DNA of 64,000 nt, taken from NCBI GenBank assembly GCA_039586365.1, contig JBDHKN010000016.1, positions 1-64,000 of the forward strand. Reading direction: 5' to 3'. Below, in pieces: positions 5,681 to 21,751 of this stretch (position 1 is its first letter; every line of letters starts with the position of its first letter). The translations under genes and the position numbers were made by a program. This DNA is from Gemmatimonadota bacterium (GTDB lineage Bacteria; Gemmatimonadota; Gemmatimonadetes; Gemmatimonadales; GWC2-71-9). The notes beneath the pieces are model-generated. The model worked only from the letters and a program-made list of their open reading frames with translations. It had not been told where the DNA came from and did no database searches.

Positions 5681-5820
5681 GGGGCCTCCTGCGTAAAGAG
5701 TTCCACGGCGCAGTTTTGAGTTGGCTTTTCTGCGGCATGAAGCCTGAACCTACCTCGTGCGTGGGCGCGTCGTAGTCCTCCCGTAGCGCTCCGCTGAGAG
5801 TAAGTAAGGTCGGTAAGTCA

Positions 5821-5839
5821 CCGGGGAAAAACTCCCCGG
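5821..5839. promoter_or_regulatory. Inverted repeat CCGGGGA-N5-TCCCCGG, candidate enhancer (bEBP) site
   Basis: Perfect 7-bp arms about 150 bp upstream of a sigma54-like element. Confidence 0.4.
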
Positions 5840-5990
5840 CGATACGAAACCGGCCGCTTTCTGCTCGCCGCCTGACCCCGCCCTCAGCGTGACTCCGTAA
5901 TCGATAGGGACATCGTAACATCCAAGAGAACAGAGACTTACATGCCCGAACCAGCACTGTCACCAGCAGCGCGCTGAACGCTGAACCGGT

Positions 5991-6005
5991 TAGCACGGCC
6001 CTTGC
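5991..6005 (+). promoter_or_regulatory. Candidate sigma54 (-24/-12) promoter
   Basis: TAGCACGGCCCTTGC versus consensus TGGCACG-N4-TTGC (one mismatch, at a normally conserved G); locus encodes a sigma54 activator. Confidence 0.45.
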
Positions 6006-6042
6006 CTTTGAGGGCGGCGCAACCAAATGGCTGGGGGATACT

Positions 6043-6339
6043 GTGCCAACGCAGAGCATCGTGAAGCAGGGCTTGTGTTCGACTTGTGTCAACGCCGCGA
6101 CCTGCATGTACCTGAAGTCCCGTCGGCATCCGGTACATCAATGCGAGCAATTCGACGACTACGTGCCGCCGCTCAGCGTACGGAAGGCCAATCCGACAAT
6201 CGCGAAACCCGGCAATGAGCCGGTGGTCTCGCTGCGACCCAACGGCCGATTGGGACTATGCAGCACCTGCGAGGCGTGGGAGGCCTGCGCCTTTCGCCAA
6301 CCTGAGGGAGGCGTCTGGCACTGCGACGAATACCACTAG
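6043..6339 (+). CDS. Small protein with two GLCxxC-x5-C..C repeats (metal-binding)
   Basis: GLCSTC occurs twice, 8 Cys; GGGGGA RBS; first gene of the operon. Confidence 0.75.
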   Translation: MPTQSIVKQGLCSTCVNAATCMYLKSRRHPVHQCEQFDDYVPPLSVRKANPTIAKPGNEPVVSLRPNGRLGLCSTCEAWEACAFRQPEGGVWHCDEYH

Positions 6340-6381
6340 GTCGCGTATTGCTCGAATCGCACAACGGAGAGGCATGTCAAC

Positions 6382-7233
6382 ATGAGTGTTCGGATGAACC
6401 CGGAGGAAGTGTTCCGGATCGTCGATAGGCACAACGGTAGGGAAGGCGCCGTCATTTCAATTCTCGAAGACATTCAGGCCCAATACAATCACCTGCCGGA
6501 GGTGGCCCTCAAGATCGTCGCGAACAGAACAGGCCGTTCGCTCGTTGATGTGTTCGGTGTTGCGACGTTCTACCGGGGATTCAGTTTGAAGCCCCGGGGC
6601 AAGCACCTCGTGTCGGTTTGCATGGGTACCGCCTGTCACGTGCGCGGATCACCGCAGCTTCTCAAGGCCTTCGAAGGGCAGCTTAAAGTAAGGGCGGGTG
6701 GTACTAGTGATGGTGGGGAGTTTTCTCTATCGACAGTGAACTGTCTCGGTGCATGCGCGCTTGGGCCGGTCGCGGTCGTGGATGGCGAGTATTACAGGAC
6801 TGTCAAGGATCGCGACGTCCCGGGTGTCCTCGAACGCTCTGCGCGAATCAACGGCGCCCTTAGCCTGAGCGACGACGAGCGGGTGTTCGGGGTGAATGTG
6901 TCGTGTCCGAGCTGTAACCGCAGCCTGATGACTCGAGAGCACCTGCTCGAGGGTCATCCTATGATCCGTGTGACAGCCTCCTTCGGCCGCAAACACGGCT
7001 GGATGAGGTTGAGCAGCCTGTACGGTGACTACCGGATAGAGAGTGAGTACGACATTCCAGACGGCGCGGTTGTCCATTTCTTCTGTCCCCGTTGTCATGC
7101 AGAACTCAGATCCACCCGACTCTGCCCGAACTGCGATGCCCCGATGATCATCCTGCTCGTGCGAGGCGGCGGAACTGTGCAACTCTGTTCGCGTCGCGGG
7201 TGCAAGGAACACATGCTGGATCTGGGCGTGTGA
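6382..7233 (+). CDS. NuoE/HydC-like [2Fe-2S] subunit with C-terminal zinc-ribbon extension
   Basis: VATFY, CMGTACHVRG, NCLGACALGP; extra CPSC, CPRC, CPNC, CSRRGC. Confidence 0.88.
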   Translation: MSVRMNPEEVFRIVDRHNGREGAVISILEDIQAQYNHLPEVALKIVANRTGRSLVDVFGVATFYRGFSLKPRGKHLVSVCMGTACHVRGSPQLLKAFEGQLKVRAGGTSDGGEFSLSTVNCLGACALGPVAVVDGEYYRTVKDRDVPGVLERSARINGALSLSDDERVFGVNVSCPSCNRSLMTREHLLEGHPMIRVTASFGRKHGWMRLSSLYGDYRIESEYDIPDGAVVHFFCPRCHAELRSTRLCPNCDAPMIILLVRGGGTVQLCSRRGCKEHMLDLGV

Positions 7234-7303
7234 TGGACCAGCAGCGGTTGGCGACTTTGGCGTCCTGAAAACGAACGTAAACAGAAACCATTGACGACGC
7301 ACT

Positions 7304-10300
7304 ATGCCGAGACTCAGTACGATTGGAGAACTAGAGCAGCTACGCCGGCGCATACGCGACCGCGTGGGTCAGCAAAGACCATGTGTCACAGTCTGTGCTG
7401 GCACCGCCTGTCAGGCTAGCGGAGCCAACGACGTTCAGCGCGTCATCAAGCGACATCTCATCGAGAGAGACCTCGTTGACCAGGTGTTGCTGCGCGTAAC
7501 GGGATGCCATGGGTTTTGCGAGATGGGCCCCTTCGTGGTTCAGGAGCCGCAAGACGCTTTCTATCCAAAGATCACTACGAAAGACGTGCCGGCAATCGTC
7601 GACGCAGCCGTCTTGGGTGAGACCCTCCCGGATCTTCTCTATCGCGATCCAATCACTGACGTTCCCTGCCAATGTTTGGATGACATCCGCTTCTTCGCAG
7701 GACAGCAACGCACATTGCTCGGGCGAAACCAACGCCTGGATCCAATCAGGTTGTTCGGTTATCTCGCCGAGGGCGGGTACGAAGCGCTGGCGCGGGTTCT
7801 GGAGCGGTACACACCTGAACAGATAATCGACGAGGTAAAACGTTCAGGGCTGCGGGGGCGTGGCGGGGCGGGTTTCCCCACCGCTGAAAAGTGGGACGTG
7901 GCACGGCGTCAGGAGAGCGGAGAGAAGTACGTCGTCTGCAATGCCGACGAGGGAGACCCGGGAGCCTACATGGATCGCAGTATCCTTGAAGGCAATCCTC
8001 ACAGCGTCATCGAGGGGATGATCATCGGCGGGCTCGCTATGGGTGCCAGCGAGGGTTTCGTGTTCGTAAGACATGAGTATCCCCTCGCAATCAAACACCT
8101 GTTGATTGCGCTCCGCTTGGCTCGCGAGTACGGCCTCCTCGGAGAAGACATACTTGGCACCGGCCGCGACTTCGACATCAACATTGTGAAGAGTGCCGGT
8201 GCCTTCGTGTGCGGTGAGGAAACAGCTCTCATTCGCACCATCGAGGGTGCTGTGGGTGAGCCACGGCAGCGACCCCCTTTCCCAACAGAGAGTGGCATCA
8301 ATGGCAAGCCCACATGCATCAACAATGTGGAGACGTGGGCGAACATTCCAATCGTCATCGCTAGGGGGGGTGACGAATTTGCCCGTATTGGGACCCCTAC
8401 CAGCACGGGTACGAAGGTCTTTTCAGTTGTTGGAAAGATCAGGAACACGGGCTTGGTGGAAGTGCCGATGGGTACCTCCATCAAGGAAATCGTATACGAC
8501 ATTGGCGGCGGCCCACTCGAGGGCAGCAGGATCAAGGCTATTCAGATAGGGGGGCCGTCCGGCGGGTGCATCCCGCATTGGCGGTTCGACCTCCCGATCG
8601 ACTACGACAGCCTGAAGGAGGCCGGCGCCATGATGGGTTCGGGCGGCATGATCGTCATGGACGATAAGACCTGCATGGTGGATGTCGCCAAATACTTCAT
8701 GGGTTTCCTCAAGGACGAGTCATGTGGCAAGTGCTTCACGTGTCGCAAGGGAACGCAGCGGCTGTGGGAGCTGCTGGACGACATCACCGAGGGGCGGGGT
8801 ACCTTGGCACACCTCGATCTCCTGGAAGCGCTAGGCCAGACAGTCACGGACTCCACGATGTGTGGCCTGGGGCAGTCAGCGGCCAATCCAGTACTGAGTA
8901 CGCTCCGCTATTTCCGTGGTGAATACGAGCGACACGTAATCGACAAACGATGTGATGCTCAGGTCTGCAGGGGACTCACGGGTGCACCGTGCCAGGCTGC
9001 CTGTCCGGTTGGGACAGAAGCTTGGCGGTACGCCGCTCTCATCGCCCGAGGCGAGTACGAGGAAGCGTACAGGGCCATACGTGAACCTAATCCATTCCCG
9101 TCGGTGTGCGCACGCGTGTGCGACCACAAATGTGAAGAGCGCTGCCGTCTCGGCGCATCGGGAGAGGACCCACTAGCACTCCGCGCTCTGAAGCGCTTCA
9201 TAACCGACACTGTCGATCCGCGCCTATACCAAGCTGAGAGGTATGCCAATCCGGTTTTGGCAGGCAAGAAGGTGGCGATTGTGGGCGCCGGTCCGGCCGG
9301 ACTCACAACGGCACACCATCTATCGCTGCAGGGTGTCAAGACAACGGTCTTCGAGGCCGAGGACCGTGCGGGGGGGATGCTGGTGTCCGGCATACCGGGT
9401 TTCCGGCTCCCGCGGGACGTCTTGAACAAAGAAATCGATGCGTTGATCGACGAGAACGTCACGCTCAGCTGTGGGACAGCGTTGGGTCGCGATTTCACGA
9501 TCGACAGCCTGTTTGCATCTGGCTTTGATGCGGTGTTCCTGGCACTGGGGGCGCACAGGAGCCGGCGCATGAACATCGATGGAGAGGACTTGACTGGGGT
9601 CTATCCCTCTATCGAGTTCCTCAAATCGTGGAACTTGCGGGGCGAGGTACTTGCCAAGGGTAGGGTGGGAGTCATCGGAGGGGGGAACTCTGCGATTGAT
9701 GCCGCTCGTGTCGCCGTCCGCCAGGAGGGGGTGAGCGAGGTAACGATCTTCTACCGTCGCACTCGCCATGAGATGCCGGCGTTTGCGGAGGAGATCGAGG
9801 GCGCCCTCGAGGAAGGTGTGAAACTGGAACTGCTTACCTCACCTGTGACTGTGCACGGTGAGGACGGACGCATGACCACCGTCGAATTCATCGTTAACGA
9901 GCTGGGTGACGTGGACACCAGTGGTCGCCGCAGACCGGTTCCCAAGGCTGGATCGGAGAAGCGGGTGCCGCTCGACACACTCGTTGTGGCGATCGGAGAG
10001 CAATCGGTAGACGACGGTGCCGACGTGACCGAAGGGATTCATGTGAAGAATGGGGCGGTGGTCGTGGACAAGCGCACGCTGGAGACGGGTAGGCCGGGTG
10101 TGTTTGCAGGCGGCGATTTCGCAACCGGCCCGAACACCGTCATCGACGCGATTGCTGCCGGCAGGCGTGCGGCCGCCGTGATTGAGAGATATCTGCAGGG
10201 AGAGAGCCTGGTCGCGCCAGTCGAGCCGCTTCTCCCGACAGCATATGTCGAACCGGTCGCAAGTAGCGGAGCAGCGGACGACCGGATAGGGAGAGTGGAG

Positions 10301-10474
10301 ATACCGGTGCAGCCAGCGGAGAAGCGTAGACGCCTCTTCACCGAAGTGGAGGCGACGGTCACTGCTGAAGCCGCCGTCCGTGAAGCGAGGCGGTGTCTGA
10401 GATGCGACCTAGAGTTTACCAGCTGCCCGGAGGCCGAAGGTGTGCTCCCGGAGACAAGCAGAGGACATAGATGA
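7304..10474 (+). CDS. NuoF/HydB-like FMN/NADH subunit fused to a GltD-like FAD/NADPH domain
   Basis: GRGGAGFP, NADEGDPGAYM, GAFVCGEET, CGKCFTCR..CGLG; then CQAACP, CARVC, GAGPAG, GGGNSAID, YRR, FAGGD. Confidence 0.92.
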   Translation: MPRLSTIGELEQLRRRIRDRVGQQRPCVTVCAGTACQASGANDVQRVIKRHLIERDLVDQVLLRVTGCHGFCEMGPFVVQEPQDAFYPKITTKDVPAIVDAAVLGETLPDLLYRDPITDVPCQCLDDIRFFAGQQRTLLGRNQRLDPIRLFGYLAEGGYEALARVLERYTPEQIIDEVKRSGLRGRGGAGFPTAEKWDVARRQESGEKYVVCNADEGDPGAYMDRSILEGNPHSVIEGMIIGGLAMGASEGFVFVRHEYPLAIKHLLIALRLAREYGLLGEDILGTGRDFDINIVKSAGAFVCGEETALIRTIEGAVGEPRQRPPFPTESGINGKPTCINNVETWANIPIVIARGGDEFARIGTPTSTGTKVFSVVGKIRNTGLVEVPMGTSIKEIVYDIGGGPLEGSRIKAIQIGGPSGGCIPHWRFDLPIDYDSLKEAGAMMGSGGMIVMDDKTCMVDVAKYFMGFLKDESCGKCFTCRKGTQRLWELLDDITEGRGTLAHLDLLEALGQTVTDSTMCGLGQSAANPVLSTLRYFRGEYERHVIDKRCDAQVCRGLTGAPCQAACPVGTEAWRYAALIARGEYEEAYRAIREPNPFPSVCARVCDHKCEERCRLGASGEDPLALRALKRFITDTVDPRLYQAERYANPVLAGKKVAIVGAGPAGLTTAHHLSLQGVKTTVFEAEDRAGGMLVSGIPGFRLPRDVLNKEIDALIDENVTLSCGTALGRDFTIDSLFASGFDAVFLALGAHRSRRMNIDGEDLTGVYPSIEFLKSWNLRGEVLAKGRVGVIGGGNSAIDAARVAVRQEGVSEVTIFYRRTRHEMPAFAEEIEGALEEGVKLELLTSPVTVHGEDGRMTTVEFIVNELGDVDTSGRRRPVPKAGSEKRVPLDTLVVAIGEQSVDDGADVTEGIHVKNGAVVVDKRTLETGRPGVFAGGDFATGPNTVIDAIAAGRRAAAVIERYLQGESLVAPVEPLLPTAYVEPVASSGAADDRIGRVEIPVQPAEKRRRLFTEVEATVTAEAAVREARRCLRCDLEFTSCPEAEGVLPETSRGHR

Positions 10475-11148
10475 TCACACTCAATATCAACGGGATTACC
10501 GTGGAAGTGGAGAAGGGCACGACGCTGCTCGAAGCCGCTCAATTCCTGGGGTTTCCCATCCCGACTCTGTGCCACATGGAGGGACTGTCTCCTTACGGTG
10601 CGTGTAGGCTCTGCGTGGTGGAGATCGGTGCAGGGGCCAGATCTAGGTTGGTCAGTTCCTGTACCTACCGGGCCGAGGAGGGGTTGAAGGTCCGGACCGC
10701 ATCGTCGCGCGTGGTCAAGACGAGGAAGATGATTCTCGAACTGCTGGTAGCGTCCTGTCCTCAGTCCAAGACCATTCAGGACCTCGCTGCCGCGCACGAC
10801 ATACGGCAGCAGCGTTTCCGTCAGGAGTATGAGGACTGCATTCTGTGCGGCCGTTGCGTGCGAATGTGCGAAGAACAGATGATGGCCAAGGCTATCGGCT
10901 TTCGCGGCAGGGGTGAGAGCCGGAGTATTGGCACTCCGTTCGATATCAAATCCGACGTCTGCCGTCTGTGCGGTGCCTGTATCTACGTGTGCCCCGCCTG
11001 CGAGCTGAGGTGCACCTACACCGAACCCGAGAAGGCAGTCTGCGGTGGCTGTGCCAACATCAGCCCGCCATGCGTCGAAGTGGATGAATTCGACGACATG
11101 ATGTGCTATATGAATCCCTGCGTCGCTTGCGAAGTCGTGCGGCGCTAA
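10471..11148 (+). CDS. NuoG/HydA N-terminal-like Fe-S protein without a catalytic domain
   Basis: IPTLC..GACRLC..SSC [2Fe-2S]; CILCGRCVRMC and CRLCGACIYVCP; Cys-rich tail. Confidence 0.88.
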   Translation: MITLNINGITVEVEKGTTLLEAAQFLGFPIPTLCHMEGLSPYGACRLCVVEIGAGARSRLVSSCTYRAEEGLKVRTASSRVVKTRKMILELLVASCPQSKTIQDLAAAHDIRQQRFRQEYEDCILCGRCVRMCEEQMMAKAIGFRGRGESRSIGTPFDIKSDVCRLCGACIYVCPACELRCTYTEPEKAVCGGCANISPPCVEVDEFDDMMCYMNPCVACEVVRR

Positions 11149-11176
11149 AGGTGAGTTTAGGCCCAAGGAGAGAGCG

Positions 11177-12760: not shown

Positions 12761-13100
12761 TCGGAGGCGTCCCGACAACGGAAAAGGCCGCTTCCATTCC
12801 CATCCGCGATGTGGCAGAACTGGCAAGCTGCCGCAGACTTTCCAGGGGATGGAAGTGGCCGCTTCAACCTGAGATTCCACCGTACATACGCCGCCATGAA
12901 GTATTGCAGCGACAACACGCAGGTGCCTGCGTCCTTCCCAGAAGGTAGATTCGACTAGAGTATGGGACCATGGGGAAGCCATGGGCGGTGCCGTCGTGAT
13001 TGTCCTCGTGAGCTGCCACACTGCCGCCGGTTCGAGGGTATCGACCCACATATTGAAGCTTCCGAGCGTTTTGGTGCGACAGAGGAGGCCAGTTGGGATC

Positions 13101-16100: not shown

Positions 16101-17924
16101 CGCCACATCTTCATCGATCCCGATCCCGATCCCGGCGCGTCGTATGAGGAACGCCTTCGTCTCTTCGGGCTTGCGGGTTCCAGCTGGGTGGACTATGACG
16201 CCTCCCTCATCAGTAACGGAGGTGGGGTGTTCCCGCGGGACGCAAAGGAGATTCATCTGTCCCGCGAAGTGAGAAGCCTCTTGGGCCTGACTGAGGAGGT
16301 GGTCAACGGACCAGCGCTGATTCGAGCGATCCTGCGAGCACCGGCCGACCTGCTGTGGAACGGTGGGATCGGCACGTACGTGAAGGCGCCAGATGAGAGC
16401 AACGCTGACGTCGCTGACTCGAGTAACGATGCGGTACGCATCGATTCGAACGAGCTGCGCGTGAAGGTTGTGGGAGAGGGAGGTAACCTGGGTCTTACGC
16501 AGCGGGCTAGGATTGCCTTCGCGCTGGAAGGTGGCCGCCTGAACACTGACGCGATCGACAACTCGGGTGGCGTCGACATGTCGGATCGCGAGGTCAACCT
16601 GAAGATACTACTGAGTGCGCCGATAGACCGAGGTGATATGTCGGTGGAGGAGCGGAATGATCTGCTCGCACAGGTGAAAGGTGACGTGGCGGAGTGCGTG
16701 TTGTCCAACAACCGCTCTCAGAGCCGTGCGCTCAGCCTCGAGCAACGGAGGGCTGCGGATCGACTCGGTGACTTTCGCGACGCTTCGTACTATCTCGAAC
16801 GTGAGGTCGGGCTGAAGAGAGCCGAGGAGTACCTACCGGGGTGGGGACGACTGCAGGCGCGCCAGGAGAGCGGGAAGAGCATGACGCGCCCGGAGCTGGC
16901 CGTACTCCTCGCCTATAGCAAGTTGCACCTGAAGCGCGAGATTCTGGCTGCGGAGTTGCCTGACGACCCGATGCTCACGGATCTCTTGTGTAGCTACTTC
17001 CCGAGGCCGGTTGTCGAGCGTCTGGTGGACGGCGACCTTCGGCAGCACCGGTTGCAGCGCGAAATAATAGCTACTGTTCTCACCAACAGCCTGATCGACT
17101 TGATGGGGGTGACGTTCATACCGCGGGTCAAGCGCGACACCGGGGCGTCGGCTGCCACCATTGCGCGCGGCTGGTATGTAGTTGCAGCCATTGCGGGTGC
17201 TGCTGAGTTGCTCGAAGCCATCGAGCGAAGCCGTGAGCGACTGCCGGCAGAAGGGGAATACAGGTGGCTTCTGGTGCTGGAAGGAGTCCTCGATCGCACT
17301 GTGAGGTGGGCGGTCGAGAATCTACCGGAAGAGGTGAAAATCGGCCCCGTGATCGAGGAGTTCAAGGGTCCCGTTGGAGAGCTGTTTCACATGCTGCCCG
17401 ATATGGTCGTCGGGTCCCAGCGGTCCGTGTTCGCGGATGCGCTGCAAGAACTCGAGGGTGCCGGCCTTACTGCCGAGGAGGCGCAGAAGCTGGCGGCGCT
17501 GCAATTCCTCGGACAGCTGATGGAGGTAGCGCGGATCGCCCGCGAGGCCGATCGTCCGGTAGCCGATGTCGGACATGTGTACTGCTCGTTGGCGGAGGAC
17601 GTCGATTTTGCTCACCTTTTGAATCTGCTCGAAATGAAGCCCCTGGACGACAAGTGGGAACAACGCACGGCCCAAGGGCTGCTGCAAGACCTGGCGCAGG
17701 CGCGGCGCGATTTGACGCTGGCCGCGCTGGCCACCGGCGGCAATCGGGTTTCGGTTAGTGAGCAGCTCGCGGCTTTCCGTGAGCGCCACGCGGCGCGTTT
17801 GGCCGCGATGCGAGAGGCTTTCGAAGACTTGGTGGCCACGGAGGACATAAACCTGGCGGCCCTGACTGTTGTGACGCGGGAGACGGTCCGACACTCAGGC
17901 GCGATCTGGCAGTCTTGTGATTGA
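13101..17924 (+). CDS. gdhB: Large NAD-specific glutamate dehydrogenase
   Basis: ARGGLRWS, RTEVLGLVKTQQVKNAVIVP, YLVVAADKGTA, GDMSGDVFGNG, NTDAIDNSGGV; AGAGGAGG upstream of ATG 13101. Confidence 0.95.
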   Translation: MSAEVKDDARLALMERVLARIAKFEGPEQATLKSFTQEMLGKAPEDFYLGREEAELTEAVTSVFGLLEETAPGKMTVRVRQRQRGQHKGAVEVVVGDRPFVVDTVRQCLIDKGYEIRHELHPVVVVDRDDRGRITQIRDWTVTPERTSVVYTEFEGPLDADLAHLLEDDVRASVEDLCLATDDFHAMLVKTDEVADMLCGYGERLEGHKSEIDEIVAFLNWLKGGSFVYLGYREYDIHLDDGGRKVAKVVRGSGLGILRRELDSSVWEASPIDEFPADVRARALHGPLLLVSKANSESRVHRRARMDYIGVKKLDGAGEVVGERRFLGLFTWQAYQESRGVIPILRRKLDLLLGAANVPEGSHDHKTIIALFNEMPLEELFLVGVEDLRRQISAMMATENTGDVRLVLAPDTSGRGVNVMVIVPRPNYSDEVRGRLRSEITQAFGGAVLNDYLSLGAGDTARLHFYISATSERVERIDVQALNKQVSSIVRTWKQRLRDLLEEKYDAGQVRRLEDRYFDAFEPGYVATVDVDAALDDIGRLETLRETGVMQVSLDDHEEGDLSGSRLRLFVAHGSLILADIMPVLENLGLRVIEADALDVSTATIHRFVVQGPGRERLDRDEVGQRLTDILRTVSLGLTDNDQFNVLVVTAGMAWQEISVLRALSAYAFQIGAVPSRRAAPDALLKYPDVARLLFGVFRAKFDPELAKDRRNLLEAAELAFRDSLQGVRGIGDDGALRRLHNLVEAVVRTSYFKNQKHQLPVPRTTFKFDCSVIEQMPRPRPAREMFVHGPRTAALHLRFGPVARGGLRWSERPDDFRTEVLGLVKTQQVKNAVIVPNGAKGAFYVRKPPAQGGDVRPLVRECYKDFISGMLDVADNVVEGKVVRPEGIVAYDDDDPYLVVAADKGTATYSDTANQISAQYGFWLGDAFASGGSYGYDHKKERITARGAWECVRHHFREMGKDINLEPVTVVGIGDMSGDVFGNGMLLSRTIRLLAAFDHRHIFIDPDPDPGASYEERLRLFGLAGSSWVDYDASLISNGGGVFPRDAKEIHLSREVRSLLGLTEEVVNGPALIRAILRAPADLLWNGGIGTYVKAPDESNADVADSSNDAVRIDSNELRVKVVGEGGNLGLTQRARIAFALEGGRLNTDAIDNSGGVDMSDREVNLKILLSAPIDRGDMSVEERNDLLAQVKGDVAECVLSNNRSQSRALSLEQRRAADRLGDFRDASYYLEREVGLKRAEEYLPGWGRLQARQESGKSMTRPELAVLLAYSKLHLKREILAAELPDDPMLTDLLCSYFPRPVVERLVDGDLRQHRLQREIIATVLTNSLIDLMGVTFIPRVKRDTGASAATIARGWYVVAAIAGAAELLEAIERSRERLPAEGEYRWLLVLEGVLDRTVRWAVENLPEEVKIGPVIEEFKGPVGELFHMLPDMVVGSQRSVFADALQELEGAGLTAEEAQKLAALQFLGQLMEVARIAREADRPVADVGHVYCSLAEDVDFAHLLNLLEMKPLDDKWEQRTAQGLLQDLAQARRDLTLAALATGGNRVSVSEQLAAFRERHAARLAAMREAFEDLVATEDINLAALTVVTRETVRHSGAIWQSCD

Positions 17925-18157
17925 CCGCTCGACGTGCCGCATGTCTGCTTGGCAAGGAGCACTTCGCCCGTCGCTACCGCGTACGGAATCGGCAACTTGG
18001 GAGTGGGTTTCCGCGCACCGAGTACCTGCTGGAGGCCTGGGGGTAGCTGGCGCTTTAGGATTCAAGTCGCCAAGGCTGGGTTACGGGAAGGGGTTGGGTT
18101 GGTGGCGTCCGGTGCCACCGGTCGGTCGTGCTGCGGAAGTTCAGATGGCGGTCAACG

Positions 18158-19897
18158 ATGGGTGATCTCGAGCAGCAGTCAGCCGATGGGCCGGACGTGA
18201 AAGCTGATTCGCTGAAGGGGTTTGTCGAATTGTCCCGCCGCGTGATGCGGCTGGCCAACGAGGCGATCCCACGAGCCGAGTTCCTGCAGCAGCTTTCCCA
18301 TCTGCTGCTTGAGTTCTCGGATTGCGATTCTGTGGAGCTGGTGGCGCGGGGACAGGTTGAATATCGCGCGCGTGCGACGGCCAAGCCGCAACGCGAGTTT
18401 GTGTTCAACCCCTCGAGCGGTGATGCTGAGACACGGAAGGTGAAGTTGTCACAGGGAGGGCATTCTCACGTCCTGCGACAGCTTGTACTAGCTGAGCTGG
18501 GAGCGACTGTTGAATGGTCGGCGCCTTGCTTCACGCGGTATGGTAGTTTCTGGACCAGCGATGTCCGAGAAACGATGGAACAGTACCACGAGATGGAGAG
18601 TGGGGAGCAAGCGCCCTATGCCGATGCAGTTTCGATGGCGCTGATCCCCTTCGCGATCGATGAGGCCAACGTTGGTCTATTGCGGTTCGAATGTGCGGAG
18701 CAGGGTCGATTCTCCTATGACAGGATCGAGTCATATGAGGCAGTGGTGGAGACGATTGGGCTGGCCATTGCACAGCGTCGGGCTCAGGCGGCGCTCCGTG
18801 AACGGGTTAAGGAACTGAGTTGCCTCTACGGTATTGCGCGTGTGATTGAGACTGCGGCGGGCAATGTGAGTGCTGCACTTTACCGGATAGTCTCGCTGCT
18901 TCCTCCTGCATGGCAGTATCCAGAAATCGCTGTCTCCCGAATCGTACTCGATGGCACCATGTACGCTACGGCTGATTTCGAAGAAGTAGTTGCACGACAA
19001 TCGGCCGACATTGTTGTCGACAAGGTCCGGCGTGGCACTGTGGAGGTGGGCTATGTCGAAGGGGTGGCGTACTTTCCAGATAATCCCTTCCTCGAAGAGG
19101 AAAGCCAGCTGATTCAGGCCGTCGCGCGGGAGATCGGAGATTTTATGGAGCGGCGTCAAGCCGCGGCCGAGCGCGAGCGATTGGAAGAACAGCTGCATCA
19201 TGCGGACCGGTTGGCCACCGTCGGGCAACTGGTGGCGGGGGTGGCGCACGAGATCAATGAGCCTCTCGGTAGCATCTTGGGATTTGCACAACTGGCACTG
19301 AAAGGTGGCGATGCCGTAGATAATGCTGTACAGGATCTGAACAAGATTGTCGCTTCCTGCCTCCAGGCTCGTGAGATCGTGAACAAGCTGAAGATCTTTG
19401 CCCGGCAAACTCCAATTGATAGACGTTGGGTATCAGTCGCCGACGTCGTGGCGGAGGCCATTTCCTTCGTTCGCGGTCGGTGCGCCAGCCAAGGGATCGA
19501 ATTGATACAGCAGTCGGAGGGTGAGGTATACAACACCGAGGCAGATCCAATTCAGTTGAAGCAGGTCATCGTCAATCTGGCCGTGAACGCCGTCCAGGCG
19601 ATGCCGGATGGCGGAACCCTTACCGTCAGAACTGGTGCCAACCAAGACGGGCTCTTCATTGAGGTGACCGACACCGGGCCTGGCATGACTGAAGACGTCT
19701 TGAAGCAAATCTTTAATCCATTCTTCACCACGAAAGACGTTGGAGAGGGAACAGGGTTGGGACTAAGCGTAGTCCACGGTATCGTGAATGCGCACGGTGG
19801 CGAGATCGATGTCGCTAGTGTCGAAGGGAAAGGCTCCAAGTTCACGGTACACATTCCAATCTCTGGGTCGGCGGAGCTAGATGGGGTGCGCAGATGA
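18158..19897 (+). CDS. Cytoplasmic sensor histidine kinase (GAF-like input, NtrB-like)
   Basis: AHEINEPL H-box, NAVQA, DTGPG, FFTTK, GTGLGL; no TM segment evident. Confidence 0.92.
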   Translation: MGDLEQQSADGPDVKADSLKGFVELSRRVMRLANEAIPRAEFLQQLSHLLLEFSDCDSVELVARGQVEYRARATAKPQREFVFNPSSGDAETRKVKLSQGGHSHVLRQLVLAELGATVEWSAPCFTRYGSFWTSDVRETMEQYHEMESGEQAPYADAVSMALIPFAIDEANVGLLRFECAEQGRFSYDRIESYEAVVETIGLAIAQRRAQAALRERVKELSCLYGIARVIETAAGNVSAALYRIVSLLPPAWQYPEIAVSRIVLDGTMYATADFEEVVARQSADIVVDKVRRGTVEVGYVEGVAYFPDNPFLEEESQLIQAVAREIGDFMERRQAAAERERLEEQLHHADRLATVGQLVAGVAHEINEPLGSILGFAQLALKGGDAVDNAVQDLNKIVASCLQAREIVNKLKIFARQTPIDRRWVSVADVVAEAISFVRGRCASQGIELIQQSEGEVYNTEADPIQLKQVIVNLAVNAVQAMPDGGTLTVRTGANQDGLFIEVTDTGPGMTEDVLKQIFNPFFTTKDVGEGTGLGLSVVHGIVNAHGGEIDVASVEGKGSKFTVHIPISGSAELDGVRR

Positions 19898-21264
19898 GTA
19901 ATCGCAAGGACCGAATTCTGGTCGTCGACGACTCAGCTGACGCGCGCGAAGTACTGAGCCGGAACCTGAGCGGAGAGGGCTTCCTTGTCTCCGCAGCACC
20001 GGGGGTACCAGAAGCGATACGGATGCTCGAGTCCGAATCGTACGACTTGGTGATCACGGACTTGAAGATGCCAAAGGTCGGTGGAATCGAACTGATCAAG
20101 CATGTTCGTGCCCGATCAAAGGACCTAGGCGTCATCATGATCACCGGGTACGCTTCAGTCGAATCTGCGGTTACGGCGGTCAAAGAGGGGGCGGAGCACT
20201 ACCTTGCCAAGCCGTTCACCGACGCCGAACTCCTTGCGTCGGTTCACGACGTTCTTGAGAAGGTTCGGTTCCGCCGCGCCGGGCGGGATACCGTGCTATC
20301 GGTCCACTCCCATGGTTTGGTAGGTGAATCGGAGGCGATGCGCCGCGTGTACCAAGCAGTGGATAAGGCCGCAACCACCTCAGCCACCGTGCTTGTGACG
20401 GGAGAGAGTGGAACAGGAAAGGAGCTAGTAGCTAGGGGCGTTCACTATGGTGGGAGCAGGGCACAGGCTCCGTTTGTCCCGATCAACTGCGGTGGCATTC
20501 CGGAGAGTCTGCTTGAGAGCGAACTGTTCGGTCACGTAAAAGGGTCGTTTACTGGAGCCGCCGAGACCCGCGCTGGTTTCTTCCAGACCGCCGATGGAGG
20601 TACCCTGTTCCTCGACGAGATCAGCGAAACCAGCCTATCCATGCAAGTGAAGCTCCTGAGAGTCCTGCAAGACAAGGAAATTCGCATGGTCGGTGGCAGG
20701 CAGCACGTGAACGTGGACGTGCGGATCATCGCCGCCACTAACAAGGACCTGCTCGAACTGGTGCGCAGGCAGCTGTTCCGCGAGGATCTCTACTTCCGCA
20801 TCAACGTGATCAACATCGACGTTCCACCTCTTAGGGAGAGGGACGACGACACACTTCTCCTCGCACACCACTTTGTACTCAAATACTCCAATGAGCTGGG
20901 CAAGGAGCCGCCCCAGTTCTCTGACCGCGTTCTGGAAGCGCTACGATGCTATCACTGGCCAGGTAACGTCCGCGAACTCGAAAACGTGATTCACCGGCTA
21001 GTGGTCATGAGTGAAGGCGCTGTTGTTGACATTGCCGACTTGCCTTCCGTGATGCGATTCACGGCTCAGCAGGGTGTCGTGCGACATTGCACGCTGGCCG
21101 AGGTGGAGGCAGAGCACGTGCGCAACGTGCTGGCAAGTGTAGATGGCAACAAGACACGGGCAGCCGAAATCCTCGGCATAGACCGGAAGACGTTGCGAGA
21201 GATACTGAAGCGTGACTCGAACCGCAGAGGAGGAGCCCAACCAGGCGGGGCTTCGTCATCGTGA
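19894..21264 (+). CDS. Sigma54-dependent response regulator (NtrC family)
   Basis: REC domain, GESGTGKE, ELFGHVKGSFTGA, WPGNVREL, Fis-type HTH. Confidence 0.95.
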   Translation: MSNRKDRILVVDDSADAREVLSRNLSGEGFLVSAAPGVPEAIRMLESESYDLVITDLKMPKVGGIELIKHVRARSKDLGVIMITGYASVESAVTAVKEGAEHYLAKPFTDAELLASVHDVLEKVRFRRAGRDTVLSVHSHGLVGESEAMRRVYQAVDKAATTSATVLVTGESGTGKELVARGVHYGGSRAQAPFVPINCGGIPESLLESELFGHVKGSFTGAAETRAGFFQTADGGTLFLDEISETSLSMQVKLLRVLQDKEIRMVGGRQHVNVDVRIIAATNKDLLELVRRQLFREDLYFRINVINIDVPPLRERDDDTLLLAHHFVLKYSNELGKEPPQFSDRVLEALRCYHWPGNVRELENVIHRLVVMSEGAVVDIADLPSVMRFTAQQGVVRHCTLAEVEAEHVRNVLASVDGNKTRAAEILGIDRKTLREILKRDSNRRGGAQPGGASSS

Positions 21265-21751
21265 GATCAGTGGTGGCCTGACTAACAGTGCACACCGTGG
21301 CTGGTGGAGCTACACGCAGGCGTCACCCGTGCTCGATCTGCTCCCCTCTCAACACCGCAGCACACCACACAACCGAGTTCCAGGCAGGGTATCAAGCAAA
21401 CATTGAAGGAACCTTACCAGCGAGCTGCTCGCCATTCGGCCTTCGGGTCTGCATCTTACAGCCGATGTCCGCGGTACCTGAAGGTGCACTTTGCAGCGCG
21501 GTTCACGTGTTGACGCGAACCGCGGGACTACCACGGGGGTCAAGGTCATCATCGGCCTGCGTGCGCTCAGTCTTGTTCTTTGGTCCTTGGGTACATGATG
21601 GCTGCATGAGTGGTCGGATGAGTGTGAGGCTCAGTGAGGGGCAACCGGCCGAGAAGTGCAGTGCGACGTGTGGGAGTCGATCACATTGAAATCGGTAAAA
21701 CTCGGGCCTGCGCGGAGGCATACGCGGCCACGATTCGTCTGGAGGGTGAGC

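What the first reader, a model, noticed from the sequence alone, without database searches (positions are those of the whole stretch)
6043..21264. Candidate new multi-flavin glutamate oxidoreductase system: NuoE / NuoF-GltD / NuoG-like module wired to a stand-alone FMN glutamate-synthase domain, with GdhB and its own sigma54 two-component system
Seen: eight co-oriented genes, the first five tightly spaced or overlapping. The Fe-S module has no hydrogenase H-cluster, NiFe or molybdopterin catalytic subunit, and the only substrate-acting redox enzyme in the core operon is a 527-aa FMN synthase domain with no glutamine amidotransferase domain beside it. Known: HydABC/NuoEFG-type modules feed a catalytic partner and can bifurcate electrons, the GltB FMN domain interconverts 2-iminoglutarate and glutamate, and large GdhB enzymes are catabolic. 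Inference: a glutamine-independent glutamate/2-oxoglutarate+NH3 oxidoreductase complex coupling NADH and NADPH pools, possibly forming a cycle with GdhB. I do not know of a characterised example.
Basis: partly seen in the sequence, partly recalled or inferred. Interest (0 to 1): 0.8.

Follow-up and report, generated by a model that had tools for sequence, protein, structure and literature searches.

The report
Hydrogenase-like flavoenzyme with glutamate-synthase-like subunit
This is a real, very widespread and apparently unstudied operon that joins the NADH/iron-sulfur core of electron-bifurcating hydrogenases to a distant relative of the glutamate synthase flavin domain, and it may be a glutamine-independent way of making glutamate from ammonia.

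Summary
The eight co-oriented genes exist as described. Five form a conserved core: a small Cys-rich protein, NuoE/HydC-like, a NuoF/HydB::GltD fusion, a short NuoG/HydA-N-terminal Fe-S protein, and a 527-aa FMN barrel. The histidine kinase and sigma54 regulator pair also belongs to it.

In 80 related loci from many phyla the Fe-S gene adjoins the barrel gene in 73 of 74 assessable loci, NuoF in 54 of 55 and GltD in 43 of 55.

GdhB is a window-specific insertion: 0 of 89 other loci have it. But smaller glutamate dehydrogenase genes adjoin 6 of 89.

The barrel is only distantly GltB-like. It keeps the QGAK, RHS and GGTG motifs, lacks the 3Fe-4S cysteines, and has an N-terminal four-Cys motif instead.

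Of 45 carrier genomes, 2 have a canonical GltB. The window's own genome (86% complete) shows none.

Best reading, about 0.5: a Bfu-type, ammonia-dependent glutamate-synthase-like reductase. No substrate, direction or bifurcation was shown.

I found no paper describing it. A Geobacter five-gene 'GOGAT' operon looks equivalent by annotation only.

This scan met the same operon before on other DNA, in 56 windows.

The parts
5991..6006 (+). Sigma54-type -24/-12-like element TAGCACGGCCCTTGCC, 37 nt upstream of the first gene. It has AG instead of the usual GG at -24.
   Evidence: One search gives a 1-mismatch match, which is not above chance within the window alone (5 found, 4.66 expected); its score of 12.5 is reached by about 10% of random windows. 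The closest relative, L001, has the same TAGCAC...TTGCC variant 69 nt before its first gene, and 24 of 51 related loci carry a near-consensus element there. It is weak in this window taken alone.
6043..6339 (+). 98-aa Cys/His-rich protein of unknown family. It contains two repeats of the form LCSTC...C...H.C, and is the first gene of the operon.
   Evidence: ORF. No Pfam or NCBIfam hit (Pfam on the homologue L008:2754-3134). A homologous ORF lies between the regulator and nuoE in 33 of 35 loci. The Atlas holds only 'hypothetical protein' clusters of 96-97 aa.
6382..7233 (+). NuoE/HydC (BfuC)-like [2Fe-2S] subunit with a C-terminal extension of about 130 aa carrying four CxxC pairs (zinc-ribbon-like).
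   Evidence: PF01257 at 144.6 bits over residues 12-152; weak DZR and Zn_ribbon hits in the tail. The tail is conserved: tblastn covers residues 1-281 in most loci. Present in 47 of 48 assessable loci.
7304..10474 (+). NuoF/HydB (BfuB)-like NADH/FMN subunit with an N-terminal [2Fe-2S] domain, fused at about residue 550 to a GltD/NfnB-like module of two [4Fe-4S] clusters plus FAD/NAD(P)H.
   Evidence: Pfam; NCBIfam nuoF_fam and gltD-type models. PDB: residues 25-559 match BfuB/HydB chains (7t2r_B 2e-196, 9mqx_B, 8a6t_B, 9n5u_B), and residues 555-1041 match the GltD-like parts of 9n5u_A, 9bov_A and 8oh5_C. Fused in 43 of 55 loci. In unfused orthologues the protein ends in an ordinary 2x[4Fe-4S] ferredoxin domain (L032).
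10471..11148 (+). Short BfuA-like Fe-S subunit with one [2Fe-2S] and two [4Fe-4S] motifs, plus a C-terminal tail with 8 further invariant cysteines. It has no catalytic domain.
   Evidence: Pfam Fer2_4 and Fer4_7. The best solved relative is 9mqx_A, a 247-aa NuoG-like chain, at E 3.2e-35 over residues 3-189. Alignment A3 shows invariant C177, C181, C191, C194, C201, C212, C217 and C220. It adjoins the barrel gene in 73 of 74 loci.
11177..12760 (+). 527-aa FMN TIM-barrel protein, a distant relative of the GltB synthase domain and the presumed catalytic subunit. It has an N-terminal CxxCxxxCxxxC motif (C29, C32, C36, C40).
   Evidence: Sequence searches: PF01645 47 bits, partial; no NCBIfam hit. 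More than 8000 homologues, about 80% identical across phyla. Only 1062 hits among 1.84 billion representatives.
Structure: AF2 model with pLDDT 83.8. Foldseek's top hit is 1ofd_A, with lactate oxidases nearly equal. VIA-align's top hits are flavocytochrome b2, glycolate oxidase and IDI-2, at Z about 26.
Profile alignment: hhalign against 5 canonical GltB FMN domains gives 51% probability and E 1.5e-4. QGAK, RHS and GGTG are aligned, and the GltB 3Fe-4S cysteines fall on a Cys-free stretch.
12981..17924 (+). Large (1647-aa) bacterial NAD-type glutamate dehydrogenase (GdhB class). It is inserted between the barrel gene and the kinase gene in this genome only.
   Evidence: PF05088 at 758.6 bits plus GDH_C, ACT1-3 and HM1-3. 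There were 0 tblastn hits in 80 + 3 + 6 other orthologous loci. The nearest relatives, L001 and L085, have the kinase directly after the barrel gene. Contigs of other public runs bridge the barrel gene's stop (X4 record 26), the gdhB stop (X2 record 15) and the kinase start (X1 record 8). The gdhB start is not bridged by a listed piece with 31 nt on both sides.
18128..19897 (+). Sensor histidine kinase. Its N-terminal 340 residues match no known domain.
   Evidence: HisKA and HATPase_c. No Pfam hit for residues 1-341. Homologues lie upstream of the operon in 27 of 43 loci with enough flank.
19894..21264 (+). NtrC-family sigma54-dependent response regulator.
   Evidence: Response_reg, Sigma54_activat, AAA_lid_14 and HTH_8. 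About 60-65% identical homologues lie next to the operon, upstream in 31 of 43 loci and downstream in L001 and L085.

Best explanation
The locus encodes a soluble multi-subunit iron-sulfur flavoenzyme of the Bfu (HydABC-like) kind, switched on by its own sigma54 two-component system.

Proposed electron path:
- NADH enters at the FMN of the NuoF-like domain.
- NADPH enters at the FAD of the fused GltD-like domain.
- Reduced ferredoxin possibly enters at the Bfu core.
- Electrons then run through the [2Fe-2S] and [4Fe-4S] chain of the NuoE-like and short NuoG-like subunits, on to a cluster held by the four N-terminal cysteines of the 527-aa protein, and from there to its FMN.

At that FMN, 2-oxoglutarate plus free ammonia would form 2-iminoglutarate, which is reduced to glutamate. 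The enzyme would then be a glutamine-independent glutamate synthase. It would stand in for GOGAT and work against, or beside, glutamate dehydrogenase.

Shown: the gene set, its conservation, the domain and motif content, the regulator link, the recurring glutamate dehydrogenase neighbours, and the rarity of canonical GOGAT in carriers.

Inferred: that the proteins form one complex, the order of electron carriers, the substrate, the direction, and any use of ferredoxin or bifurcation.
For: 1. Conserved operon. In the 80 best of at least 600 related genome loci, from Gemmatimonadota, Planctomycetota, Zixibacteria, Ignavibacteria, Acidobacteriota, Myxococcota and others, the Fe-S gene adjoins the barrel gene in 73 of 74 assessable loci, NuoF in 54 of 55 and NuoE in 47 of 48. 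Six further loci from another phylum sample show the full order.

2. Bfu-type core. The best solved relatives are BfuB/HydB chains (7t2r_B, 9mqx_B, 8a6t_B) and the short BfuA of 9mqx. Unfused orthologues carry the HydB-type C-terminal 2x[4Fe-4S] domain.

3. GltB kinship of the barrel. PF01645 scores above its cut-off. hhalign places KWGQGAK on GltB's IKIAQGAKPGEGG, ERHS on RHS and GGGTGMSP on DGGTGASP. These columns are invariant or nearly so in the family. A GltD module, the natural electron donor of GltB, is fused into the operon in 43 of 55 loci.

4. Link to the glutamate node. Glutamate dehydrogenase genes of three classes sit beside or inside the operon. The window has GdhB. L069, L070, L040 and L003 have NADP-GDH that passes the NF006929 cut-off. 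L004 (inside the operon), L070 and L086 have a further GDH type. That is 6 of 89 other loci. Paralogue loci L093 and L095 also have one. One 43%-identical homologue lies between two gltD-like genes beside a canonical gltB (L098).

5. Nitrogen-type regulation. An NtrC-family regulator and -24/-12 elements accompany the operon.

6. GOGAT is mostly lacking in carriers. The window's genome has no PF00310, PF01493 or PF04898. A canonical GltB was found in 2 of 45 orthologue-carrying genomes. Background rates for a GXGXG match are 109 of 301 and 69 of 201 genomes in two phylum samples, and 14 of 14 control genomes.
Against: - The barrel is very far from GltB. A profile search of the PDB gives GltB only at E about 0.09, and hhalign probability is only 51%. 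By VIA-align the alpha-hydroxy-acid oxidases and IDI-2 rank first, and no GltB is among the 50 rows shown. Fold alone therefore does not single out glutamate synthase.
- The [3Fe-4S] ligands, the amidotransferase domain, the central domain and the GXGXG domain of GOGAT are all missing.
- The lack of GOGAT is weak evidence. About two thirds of the genomes in both phylum samples lack it anyway, and related genomes are not independent. With all 32 Planctomycetota carriers, paralogues included, the contrast is not significant: 7 of 32 against 62 of 169, p = 0.15. The significant contrast (1 of 22 against 68 of 179, p = 0.0014) uses a 59% identity cut that I chose after seeing both tables.
- The window's genome is only 86% complete.
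- The 2-oxoglutarate+NH4+/glutamate couple lies well above NAD in potential (recalled value, about -0.14 V). A bifurcating core is therefore not needed for this reaction, and its presence is unexplained.
- Twelve of 55 loci lack GltD. Four carriers have weak GXGXG hits in other proteins.
- Nothing here shows that the proteins bind each other.
Confidence: 0.5

Rival explanations
1. The complex has the same architecture, but the 527-aa FMN subunit acts on another substrate. This could be a different 2-oxo or imino acid, or an unrelated C=N or C=C bond. The glutamate-synthase likeness would then reflect only shared ancestry of the barrel.
For: The barrel is as similar in fold to lactate and glycolate oxidases and to IDI-2 as to GltB. 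Only 1062 of 1.84 billion representatives are reached, and canonical GltB is not among them in any number. Paralogues at about 50% identity sit in quite different contexts, with Haem_oxygenas_2-like and hemerythrin genes in L096 and L100, so the superfamily is functionally diverse. Flanking genes other than GDH are not conserved.
Against: The QGAK and RHS motifs are conserved. In GltB these carry the 2-oxoglutarate-binding lysine and arginine; that residue role is recalled, while the alignment is. Every dehydrogenase neighbour has a glutamate dehydrogenase model as its best hit, not a Leu, Val or Phe dehydrogenase model. The GltD module is fused in. A homologue lies beside canonical gltBD (L098).
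Confidence: 0.28
2. The complex works mainly in the oxidative or cycling sense. It oxidises glutamate, or cycles glutamate and 2-oxoglutarate together with GdhB, so as to shuttle reducing power between the NADH, NADPH and ferredoxin pools.
For: NADH- and NADPH-type sites lie on one polypeptide. GdhB lies directly downstream in this window, and GDH genes lie next to the operon elsewhere. A solved GOGAT-GDH 'counter-enzyme complex' exists (title of 7mfm).
Against: GdhB adjacency is unique to this window (0 of 89 other loci), and gaps of 220 and 203 nt set it apart from its neighbours. Twelve of 55 loci have no NADPH module. Glutamate oxidation cannot by itself reduce NAD+ or ferredoxin to any extent (thermodynamics recalled, not computed here). 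Transhydrogenation is already provided by the known Nfn-Bfu design without an extra FMN barrel.
Confidence: 0.1
3. It is an Nfn/Stn-like NADH:ferredoxin:NADP+ transhydrogenase in rearranged form, and the 527-aa protein is an accessory electron-transfer or regulatory subunit rather than a substrate-turning enzyme.
For: The NuoE, NuoF, NuoG-N-terminal and GltD-like modules are those of NfnABC and Stn (PDB matches to 9n5u_A/B, 8oh5_B/C and 9bov_A/B). The window's genome uses a second NuoF::GltD fusion in a NiFe-hydrogenase/HdrA-like cluster on contig C14, so the fusion is a general module.
Against: The barrel is the most conserved protein of the set, at about 80% identity across phyla against 50-65% for NuoE, NuoF and GltD. 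It keeps FMN and substrate-type motifs. It stays when GltD is absent (12 of 55 loci). In solved Nfn-Bfu and Stn enzymes the GltD-like part is fused to the BfuA-like chain, not to BfuB.
Confidence: 0.07

Closest known systems
Wor-Bfu (WorABCSL, PDB 9MQX) and other Type 2 and 3 Bfu enzymes, as classified by Schut et al. 2022 (PMC9304861)
   Same: The BfuB- and BfuC-like core and a short BfuA (about 225-247 aa) without a catalytic domain, which hands electrons to an extra catalytic subunit. 9mqx_A is the best solved match of the 225-aa protein (E 3.2e-35), and 9mqx_B is the second best match of the NuoF part (E 8.6e-190).
   Different: Here the extra subunit is an FMN barrel, not a tungstopterin enzyme. 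BfuB is fused to GltD in most loci. BfuC has a zinc-ribbon-like tail and BfuA a tail with 8 cysteines. A 98-aa Cys-rich protein is added. The classification section of the 2022 paper (section 5, parts 1-2 read; term search of the whole text) lists no glutamate-synthase-like class. I did not see part 3 or the supplementary tables.
Nfn-Bfu (NfnABC, PDB 9N5U) and Sporomusa-type Nfn (Stn, PDB 8OH5)
   Same: A NuoE-like, NuoF-like and NuoG-N-terminal-like set combined with a GltD/NfnB-like NADPH-FAD module.
   Different: In those enzymes the GltD-like part sits in the BfuA-like chain (9n5u_A, 8oh5_C, 9bov_A), whereas here it is fused to the C-terminus of BfuB. They have no further catalytic subunit. 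Here GltD is dispensable (absent in 12 of 55 loci) and the FMN barrel is constant.
NADPH-dependent glutamate synthase GltB/GltD (PDB 1EA0, 2VDC, 6S6X) and Fd-GltS (1OFD)
   Same: A GltD-type NADPH/FAD/2x[4Fe-4S] donor together with an FMN barrel carrying QGAK, RHS and GGTG motifs. 1ofd_A is Foldseek's top hit.
   Different: There is no amidotransferase, central or GXGXG domain. The [3Fe-4S] cysteines are absent and replaced by an N-terminal four-Cys motif. Sequence similarity is marginal. A NuoE/NuoF/NuoG-like module is added.
Bacillus subtilis GltAB-GudB 'counter-enzyme complex' (PDB 7MFM; only the entry title was seen, the paper is recalled and was not read)
   Same: A glutamate-forming enzyme and a glutamate dehydrogenase are functionally paired. 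Here the pairing appears as repeated gene adjacency.
   Different: Only gene adjacency is seen here, in a minority of loci. No physical complex is shown.
Geobacter sulfurreducens GSU1235-GSU1239, annotated as the 'glutamate synthase (GOGAT)' operon (PMC2725144, passages read)
   Same: It has five genes in the same order by annotation: hypothetical; hypothetical; pyridine nucleotide-disulphide oxidoreductase; iron-sulfur cluster-binding protein; glutamate synthase-related protein. A predicted RpoN promoter stands before the first gene. GSU1239 rose together with glnA in one transcriptome (PMC6964889).
   Different: I could not compare the sequences, so the equivalence is a lead and not a result. 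The GOGAT label there is annotation, not biochemistry.

Membership tests
Bfu (HydABC-type) electron-bifurcating enzyme family | BfuB: a NuoF-like FMN/NADH subunit with an extra N-terminal [2Fe-2S] domain and a C-terminal 2x[4Fe-4S] domain | tested here: met
   Complex1_51K, SLBB, NADH_4Fe-4S and an N-terminal 2Fe-2S_thioredx hit (27.3 bits). HydB/BfuB chains are the best PDB matches. In the window the C-terminal dicluster domain is the Fer4_20 of the fused GltD. Unfused orthologues have the ordinary ferredoxin domain (L032).
Bfu (HydABC-type) electron-bifurcating enzyme family | BfuC (NuoE-like [2Fe-2S]) and BfuA (NuoG/HydA-N-terminal Fe-S) encoded alongside | tested here: met
   PF01257 at 144.6 bits; Fer2_4 and Fer4_7; 9mqx_A at E 3.2e-35.
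Bfu (HydABC-type) electron-bifurcating enzyme family | Coupled use of NAD(H), ferredoxin and a third substrate (bifurcation or confurcation) | not testable with these tools
   This needs enzyme assays.
Nfn-Bfu / Stn transhydrogenase | The GltD/NfnB-like NADPH module is part of the BfuA-like subunit, and there is no other catalytic subunit | tested here: not met
   The GltD part is fused to BfuB, whereas 9n5u_A, 8oh5_C and 9bov_A carry it in the A-type chain. A further FMN subunit is always present. GltD is absent in 12 of 55 loci.
Glutamate synthase (GOGAT, GltB large subunit) | N-terminal class-II glutamine amidotransferase domain (PF00310) | tested here: not met
   None in the eight genes. 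There were 0 hits in the window's genome, which is 86% complete. Hits in 1 of 5 closed carrier genomes.
Glutamate synthase (GOGAT, GltB large subunit) | FMN synthase domain (PF01645) with the QGAK...RHS...GGTG motifs | tested here: met
   PF01645 scores 47 bits against a cut-off of 20.4, but only over residues 279-400. hhalign gives 51% probability and E 1.5e-4, with the three motifs aligned. The membership is distant.
Glutamate synthase (GOGAT, GltB large subunit) | [3Fe-4S] cluster cysteines after the barrel (GCxMMRKCHLNTC in the five canonical sequences of A2) | tested here: not met
   The aligned stretch of the 527-aa family has no cysteine. Instead C29, C32, C36 and C40 are conserved at the N-terminus.
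Glutamate synthase (GOGAT, GltB large subunit) | Central domain (PF04898) and C-terminal GXGXG domain (PF01493) | tested here: not met
   Neither is in the operon, and both gave 0 hits in the window's genome.
Glutamate synthase small subunit GltD / NfnB-like | Fer4_20 (2x[4Fe-4S]) followed by an FAD/NAD(P)H Pyr_redox_2 domain | tested here: met
   Residues 551-953. NCBIfam gltA and gltD-type models score 256-322 bits, below their whole-protein cut-offs because the protein is a fusion.
Large bacterial NAD-specific glutamate dehydrogenase (GdhB class, PF05088) | Catalytic domain plus the ACT, helical and C-terminal domains | tested here: met
   Bac_GDH_CD at 758.6 bits, GDH_C at 272.4 bits, ACT1-3 and HM1-3. 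Cofactor specificity was not tested.
NtrC-type sigma54 two-component system | Receiver, AAA+ sigma54-interaction and HTH_8 domains in the regulator; HisKA and HATPase_c in the kinase; a -24/-12 promoter at the target | tested here: met
   Domains. Promoter-like elements in 24 of 51 related loci. The window's own element is a weak AG variant, so that point is inconclusive for this genome.

The most novel reading that the evidence does not exclude
The complex is a third route of ammonium assimilation. It would be an ATP-independent, glutamine-independent glutamate synthase that pulls free ammonia onto 2-oxoglutarate using low-potential electrons: NADH together with reduced ferredoxin through the Bfu core, or NADPH through GltD. 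The extra redox drive would replace the ATP spent by GS-GOGAT. It would thereby replace GOGAT in energy-limited sediment anaerobes of more than a dozen phyla. Glutamate dehydrogenase would be its counter-enzyme, and its own sigma54 sensor pair would decide when it runs.
Probability: 0.3. Interest if true: 0.85.

Novelty: new variant of a known kind. Interest (0 to 1): 0.72.

Why it matters
Glutamate is the entry point of nitrogen into biomass, and textbooks give two routes to it, GDH and GS-GOGAT. Here a five-protein enzyme is kept at about 80% identity across many phyla, with more than 8000 homologues. It is found mostly in genomes without a canonical GOGAT, and has no biochemical study that I could find.

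If it makes glutamate from free ammonia with low-potential electrons, nitrogen budgets and metabolic models of sediment anaerobes would need changing. Many of those models now either lack a GOGAT or label this gene as one. The Bfu family would also gain a biosynthetic member.

If its substrate is something else, it is still one of the most conserved unassigned redox enzymes in uncultured bacteria.

The window adds one particular point. A large GdhB has been inserted into the operon, and smaller GDH genes have been placed beside it independently elsewhere. This is the most direct genomic pointer to the glutamate node obtained here.

Tried and rejected
- Complex prediction of the 527-aa protein with the 225-aa Fe-S protein gave no verdict. 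It is reported here only.
- Public sequencing runs: no RNA holder is listed for window 9000-18500, so nothing can be said on expression or co-transcription of gdhB. Only short, low-depth DNA contigs could be laid.
- A phmmer search and a profile search of the PDB with the barrel gave no usable match. De novo TIM barrels came first, and GltB appeared at E about 0.09.
- VIA-align on Foldseek's list did not place GltB among the 50 rows shown. I do not read this as exclusion, since long multi-domain chains may be disadvantaged.
- I looked for a NuoEF-less 'GltD only' form of the operon, which the Geobacter annotation first suggested to me. I did not find one. A sample of 251 genomes around G506 held only 2 carriers, and all six loci fetched from the sample around G508 had the full architecture. 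I now think the Geobacter genes are the ordinary five-gene core, with NuoE annotated as hypothetical and the NuoF::GltD fusion annotated by its disulphide-oxidoreductase domain. This is unverified.
- No flanking gene other than GDH recurs. The only exceptions are a PPDK_N-domain protein of about 944 aa downstream in 9 loci and a nitroreductase-type gene in 2. No glnA, amtB or PII gene recurs next to the operon in my clustering.
- No intrinsic terminator or convincing promoter was found in the two gaps around gdhB, so whether gdhB is transcribed with the operon is open.
- The second PF01645 protein of the genome, a Rieske::FMN fusion of 537 aa on contig C74, sits among unrelated genes. I dropped it as a partner.
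- The phrase searches for an ammonia-dependent, glutamine-independent, bifurcating or archaeal-type glutamate synthase returned no paper.

Full report
**What is in the window**

Eight ORFs lie head to tail on the + strand between 6043 and 21264.

| Coordinates | Length | Content |
|---|---|---|
| 6043-6339 | 98 aa | Cys/His-rich protein, no family |
| 6382-7233 | 283 aa | NuoE-like [2Fe-2S] protein with a zinc-ribbon-like tail of about 130 aa |
| 7304-10474 | 1056 aa | NuoF-like protein (N-terminal [2Fe-2S], FMN/NADH site, [4Fe-4S]) that runs at about residue 550 into a complete GltD-like module, Fer4_20 plus Pyr_redox_2 |
| 10471-11148 | 225 aa | Fe-S protein of the NuoG/HydA N-terminal type |
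| 11177-12760 | 527 aa | Only Pfam hit is Glu_synthase PF01645: 47 bits, residues 279-400 |
| 12981-17924 | 1647 aa | Large glutamate dehydrogenase (PF05088, 758.6 bits) |
| 18128-19897 | 589 aa | Histidine kinase |
| 19894-21264 | 456 aa | NtrC-family sigma54 activator |

The gaps are 42 nt, 70 nt, a 4-nt overlap and 28 nt for the first five genes. Gaps of 220 and 203 nt lie on either side of gdhB. None of the eight proteins has a hydrogenase, molybdopterin or amidotransferase domain.

**Is the arrangement conserved?**

Yes, very strongly. The 527-aa protein has more than 8000 homologues in the large protein collection. The best 120 are 79-91% identical and are named from Gemmatimonadota, Planctomycetota, Zixibacteria, KSB1, Aminicenantes, Myxococcota, Bacteroidota and others. 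An exhaustive HMMER search of 1.84 billion cluster representatives finds only 1062 relatives. The family is therefore compact and stands apart from ordinary GltB.

A scan of species genomes gave at least 600 loci, of which I kept the best 80. Counting only loci with enough flank:
- The short Fe-S gene lies directly before the barrel gene in 73 of 74. The exception is L016.
- NuoF is present in 54 of 55.
- NuoE is present in 47 of 48.
- The GltD module is present in 43 of 55.
- The sigma54 regulator lies upstream in 31 of 43, and the kinase in 27 of 43.

The small Cys-rich ORF lies between regulator and nuoE in 33 of 35 loci by ORF clustering. By the stricter tblastn count it is found in 21 of 47. 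Six more loci from another phylum sample have the whole order kinase, regulator, Cys-rich gene, nuoE, nuoF::gltD, nuoG-like gene, barrel gene.

The conserved unit is thus five structural genes plus the regulator pair. In the window, in L001 and in L085 the regulator pair lies downstream instead.

**Regulation**

A near-consensus -24/-12 element, scoring 13.5 or more on my simple scale, lies within 350 nt upstream of the first gene in 24 of 51 loci. Only 1.3% of 770 random windows of the same loci reach that score.

The window's own element, TAGCACGGCCCTTGCC at 5991-6006, has AG for GG. It scores 12.5, which about 10% of random windows reach. Its closest relative L001 has the same variant at the same place. 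In this genome the promoter is therefore plausible but not shown.

**What kind of enzyme is it?**

The NuoF part is most like the BfuB/HydB subunits of solved bifurcating enzymes: 7t2r_B at 2e-196, 9mqx_B, 8a6t_B, 7q4v_B and 9n5u_B. The GltD part matches the GltD-like regions of 9n5u_A, 9bov_A and 8oh5_C.

The 225-aa protein is most like 9mqx_A, a 247-aa NuoG-like chain (E 3.2e-35). Orthologues without the GltD fusion end in the usual HydB-type 2x[4Fe-4S] domain (L032).

By the scheme of Schut et al. 2022 this is a Bfu enzyme with a short BfuA and an additional catalytic subunit. I read section 5, parts 1-2, of that paper and ran a term search of the whole text. The paper lists hydrogenase, formate dehydrogenase, Nfn, F420, Wor, Bam, CODH, POR, Mbh, Nuo and rubrerythrin partners. 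It never mentions glutamate synthase. I did not see its part 3 or its supplementary tables, which may list unclassified clusters.

Compared with the solved Nfn-Bfu and Stn enzymes, the GltD-like module is attached to the other subunit, BfuB instead of BfuA. It is also dispensable, being absent in 12 of 55 loci.

Alignment A3 shows eight further invariant cysteines in the tail of the short Fe-S protein. These could carry one or two more clusters towards the barrel. That is inference.

**The 527-aa protein**

The AlphaFold model is confident (pLDDT 83.8) except for residues 1-33 and 55-67. It is an FMN-type TIM barrel.

- Foldseek puts Fd-glutamate synthase 1ofd_A first (E 2.2e-9), but lactate monooxygenase and lactate oxidases follow closely.
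- VIA-align ranks flavocytochrome b2, glycolate oxidase, lactate oxidase and IDI-2 first, at Z about 26.

Fold therefore does not decide the family. Motifs do better. The result was 51% probability and E 1.5e-4:
- KWGQGAK falls on IKIAQGAKPGEGG.
- ERHS falls on RHS.
- GGGTGMSP falls on DGGTGASP.
- AGGF..ED falls on DGG..TGRD.

Q223-G-A-K226, R273 and H274 are invariant or nearly so in the family. From memory, not from a call, the GltB lysine and arginine in these motifs (K972 and R992 in the usual numbering) hold 2-oxoglutarate. The alpha-hydroxy-acid oxidase His/Arg motif is not present at the corresponding strand. I judged that by eye from the alignment, so it is weak evidence.

The GltB [3Fe-4S] cysteines (GCxMMRKCHLNTC in A2) align to a Cys-free stretch. 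Instead C29, C32, C36 and C40 (CxxCxxxCxxxC) are conserved at the N-terminus.

In short, the protein is a member of the PF01645 superfamily with a relocated cluster site and none of the other three GltB domains.

**Is GdhB part of the system?**

Not of the conserved one. No GdhB-type gene is found in the 80 loci, in three carriers of the window's own phylum, or in six further loci. That is 0 of 89. In the nearest relatives, L001 and L085, the kinase follows the barrel gene directly.

The junctions in the window are partly backed by other public DNA runs:
- One contig bridges the barrel gene's stop (X4 record 26).
- One bridges the gdhB stop (X2 record 15).
- One bridges the kinase start (X1 record 8).
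- The gdhB start is covered only with 24 nt on one side, so I do not count it.

The new and more telling result is that other glutamate dehydrogenase genes have been placed next to the operon independently:

| Locus | Position of the GDH gene | Type |
|---|---|---|
| L069, L070 | directly upstream of nuoE | 435-462-aa NADP-GDH, passes the NCBIfam NF006929 cut-off |
| L040 | directly downstream of the barrel gene | same NADP-GDH type |
| L003 | about 3 kb downstream, opposite strand | same NADP-GDH type |
| L004 | inside the operon, between the Cys-rich gene and nuoE | second GDH type |
| L070, L086 | directly downstream | second GDH type |

This makes 6 of 89 loci. All nine ELFV neighbours tested have glutamate dehydrogenase models as their best NCBIfam hits. 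Five of them fall below the cut-offs, and for three of those (L004, the second L070 gene and L086) I used match fragments rather than full ORFs.

Paralogues of the barrel at about 50% identity are also next to ELFV genes, in L093 and L095, which is 2 of 8 paralogue loci. A 43% homologue lies between two gltD-like genes beside a canonical 1576-aa gltB in L098.

With one or two GDH genes per genome, I would expect well under one such neighbour among 89 loci. That is a rough estimate of mine, not a computed control.

**Do carriers have a normal GOGAT?**

The window's genome (86% complete, 132 contigs) has no PF00310, PF01493 or PF04898 match, while 13 to 14 of 14 control genomes do. Its only other PF01645 protein is a Rieske fusion in an unrelated context.

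Carriers of an orthologue:

| Group of carriers | Result |
|---|---|
| 4 others of the window's phylum | 1 weak 48-bit hit only |
| 5 closed chromosomes | 1 canonical GltB (G301); the other four also lack PF00310 |
| 5 further carriers | 0 canonical, 1 weak hit |
| 9 further carriers | 0 canonical, 2 weak hits |
| 22 carriers (59% identity or more) in a 201-genome Planctomycetota sample | 1 canonical (G505) |

G302 belongs both to the closed chromosomes and to the Planctomycetota carriers and is counted once. Counting each genome once, 2 of 45 carriers have a canonical GltB.

Background rates for a GXGXG match:
- 109 of 301 genomes of the window's phylum match above the cut-off. That tally includes one genome, G055, flagged as unpublished. 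No other claim rests on it.
- 69 of 201 Planctomycetota genomes match.

The caveats are real:
- Most genomes of both phyla lack GOGAT anyway.
- Related genomes are not independent.
- The significant contrast (1 of 22 against 68 of 179, p = 0.0014) depends on an identity cut I set after seeing the data.
- With all 32 carriers the contrast is 7 of 32 against 62 of 169, p = 0.15.
- Four of those seven have only small stand-alone GXGXG frames, and their barrel homologues are about 50% identical. They may be a split, archaeal-type GOGAT lineage. I did not follow this up.

In the window's own phylum the operon is rare: 5 of 301 genomes, the window's included. Together with about 80% identity across phyla, this suggests horizontal spread. 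I did not test that.

**Mechanism proposed**

The constant parts are the BfuB/BfuC core, the short BfuA, the Cys-rich protein and the barrel. The NADPH module is optional. The simplest reading is that the barrel is the terminal reductase, fed by NADH, by NADPH where GltD is present, and possibly by ferredoxin.

I take the reaction to be 2-oxoglutarate plus ammonia to glutamate, for four reasons: the retained GltB substrate motifs, the GltD fusion, the NtrC-type control, and the GDH neighbours together with the missing GOGAT and glutaminase.

The couple lies near -0.14 V (recalled), so NADH alone suffices under standard conditions. Lower-potential electrons would only matter at very low ammonium. 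There they could supply the drive that GS-GOGAT takes from ATP. That is the bold reading, at probability about 0.3.

Everything after 'the genes are conserved together' is inference. An attempt to predict binding gave no verdict, and it is listed only under things tried.

**Literature**

Six searches found no description of this complex.

The nearest thing in print is the G. sulfurreducens operon GSU1235-1239. It is listed as 'Glutamate synthase (GOGAT)' with a predicted RpoN promoter (PromScan score 88) in PMC2725144 (passages read). Its five annotations fit the five core genes in order.

GSU1239 rose up to 3.6-fold together with glnA in one condition (PMC6964889, passages). GSU1237 and GSU1238 fell in a biofilm mutant (PMC10599522, passages). 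I could not compare sequences, so this is a lead. If it holds, a tractable host exists.

Background on GltS electron transfer came from PMC8097209 (passages). PMC2995071, PMC10746287 and PMC3543383 were checked by passages and added nothing specific. The Wor-Bfu, NfnABC and Stn papers were seen only as search listings and abstract starts.

**Earlier notes of this scan**

A look-up by sequence shows look-alike stretches in 56 windows of 56 other genomes. Eight follow-up notes call the locus an uncharacterised Bfu-type complex with a GltB-like subunit under sigma54 control. My independent checks agree.

This window adds the GdhB insertion, the repeated GDH neighbours, the GOGAT tally in carriers, the alignment of the RHS arginine motif, and the Geobacter lead.

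**Verdict**

This is a new variant of a known kind: a Bfu-type enzyme with a new, GltB-like catalytic partner. Its function is unproven.

Confidence that it is a glutamine-independent glutamate-synthase-like reductase is about 0.5. Interest is 0.72.

Noticed in passing
Own genome contig C14 (locus L087, 44-14000): A second NuoE-like gene (with an extra N-terminal FAD/Fer4 part) and a second NuoF::GltD fusion (1017 aa). They are followed by DRTGG, CBS-HATPase, PHP and HATPase genes, then a 1081-aa NuoG-N-terminal::HdrA-like fusion, MvhD (FlpD), and NiFe hydrogenase small and large subunits. The NuoF::GltD fusion is thus reused with a hydrogenase partner in the same genome.
   Followed up: partly
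Own genome contig C74 (locus L083, 8156-9769): A 537-aa Rieske [2Fe-2S]::Glu_synthase (PF01645, 311 bits) fusion protein. It lies among CNNM/CBS, beta-lactamase-like and MerB-like genes, and no GltD or glutaminase gene is nearby.
   Followed up: partly
L096 (8816-11743) and L100 (8341-12775), paralogue loci in Planctomycetota: Paralogues of the barrel at about 50% identity sit behind one or two Haem_oxygenas_2/TENA-like 'iron-containing redox enzyme' genes (and a hemerythrin gene in L096), with their own kinase and sigma54 regulator and no NuoEFG-like genes. This is a different, also unassigned, system.
   Followed up: partly
L098 (6012-16624): A 43%-identical homologue of the barrel lies between a 626-aa and a 492-aa gltD-like gene, directly beside a canonical 1576-aa gltB.
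   Followed up: no
L002:3630-6464 and 8 other loci, directly downstream of the barrel gene: A protein of about 944 aa with a PPDK_N (PEP-utilising, ATP-grasp) domain and a PAS-like N-terminal part recurs downstream of the operon in 9 loci. In the window, an unusual 650-aa protein with a pyruvate kinase barrel domain lies upstream on the other strand (3117-5069).
   Followed up: no
window 5100-6107 (- strand): A 335-aa ORF matches only the C-terminal third of a protein kinase domain (profile positions 161-259 of 263). It overlaps the start of the operon's first gene. It may be a truncated or mis-started Ser/Thr kinase gene.
   Followed up: no
window 21288-24124: After the regulator come a 133-aa ORF without a family, a 480-aa M24 metallopeptidase-like protein (weak hit) and a 304-aa double glyoxalase-domain protein, all on the + strand. 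They are not conserved beside the operon elsewhere.
   Followed up: no
G342, G379, G396, G412 (Planctomycetota sample): Genomes whose barrel homologue is only 49-53% identical carry small stand-alone GXGXG frames (250-323 aa). They may belong to a split, archaeal-type glutamate synthase lineage related to this family.
   Followed up: no
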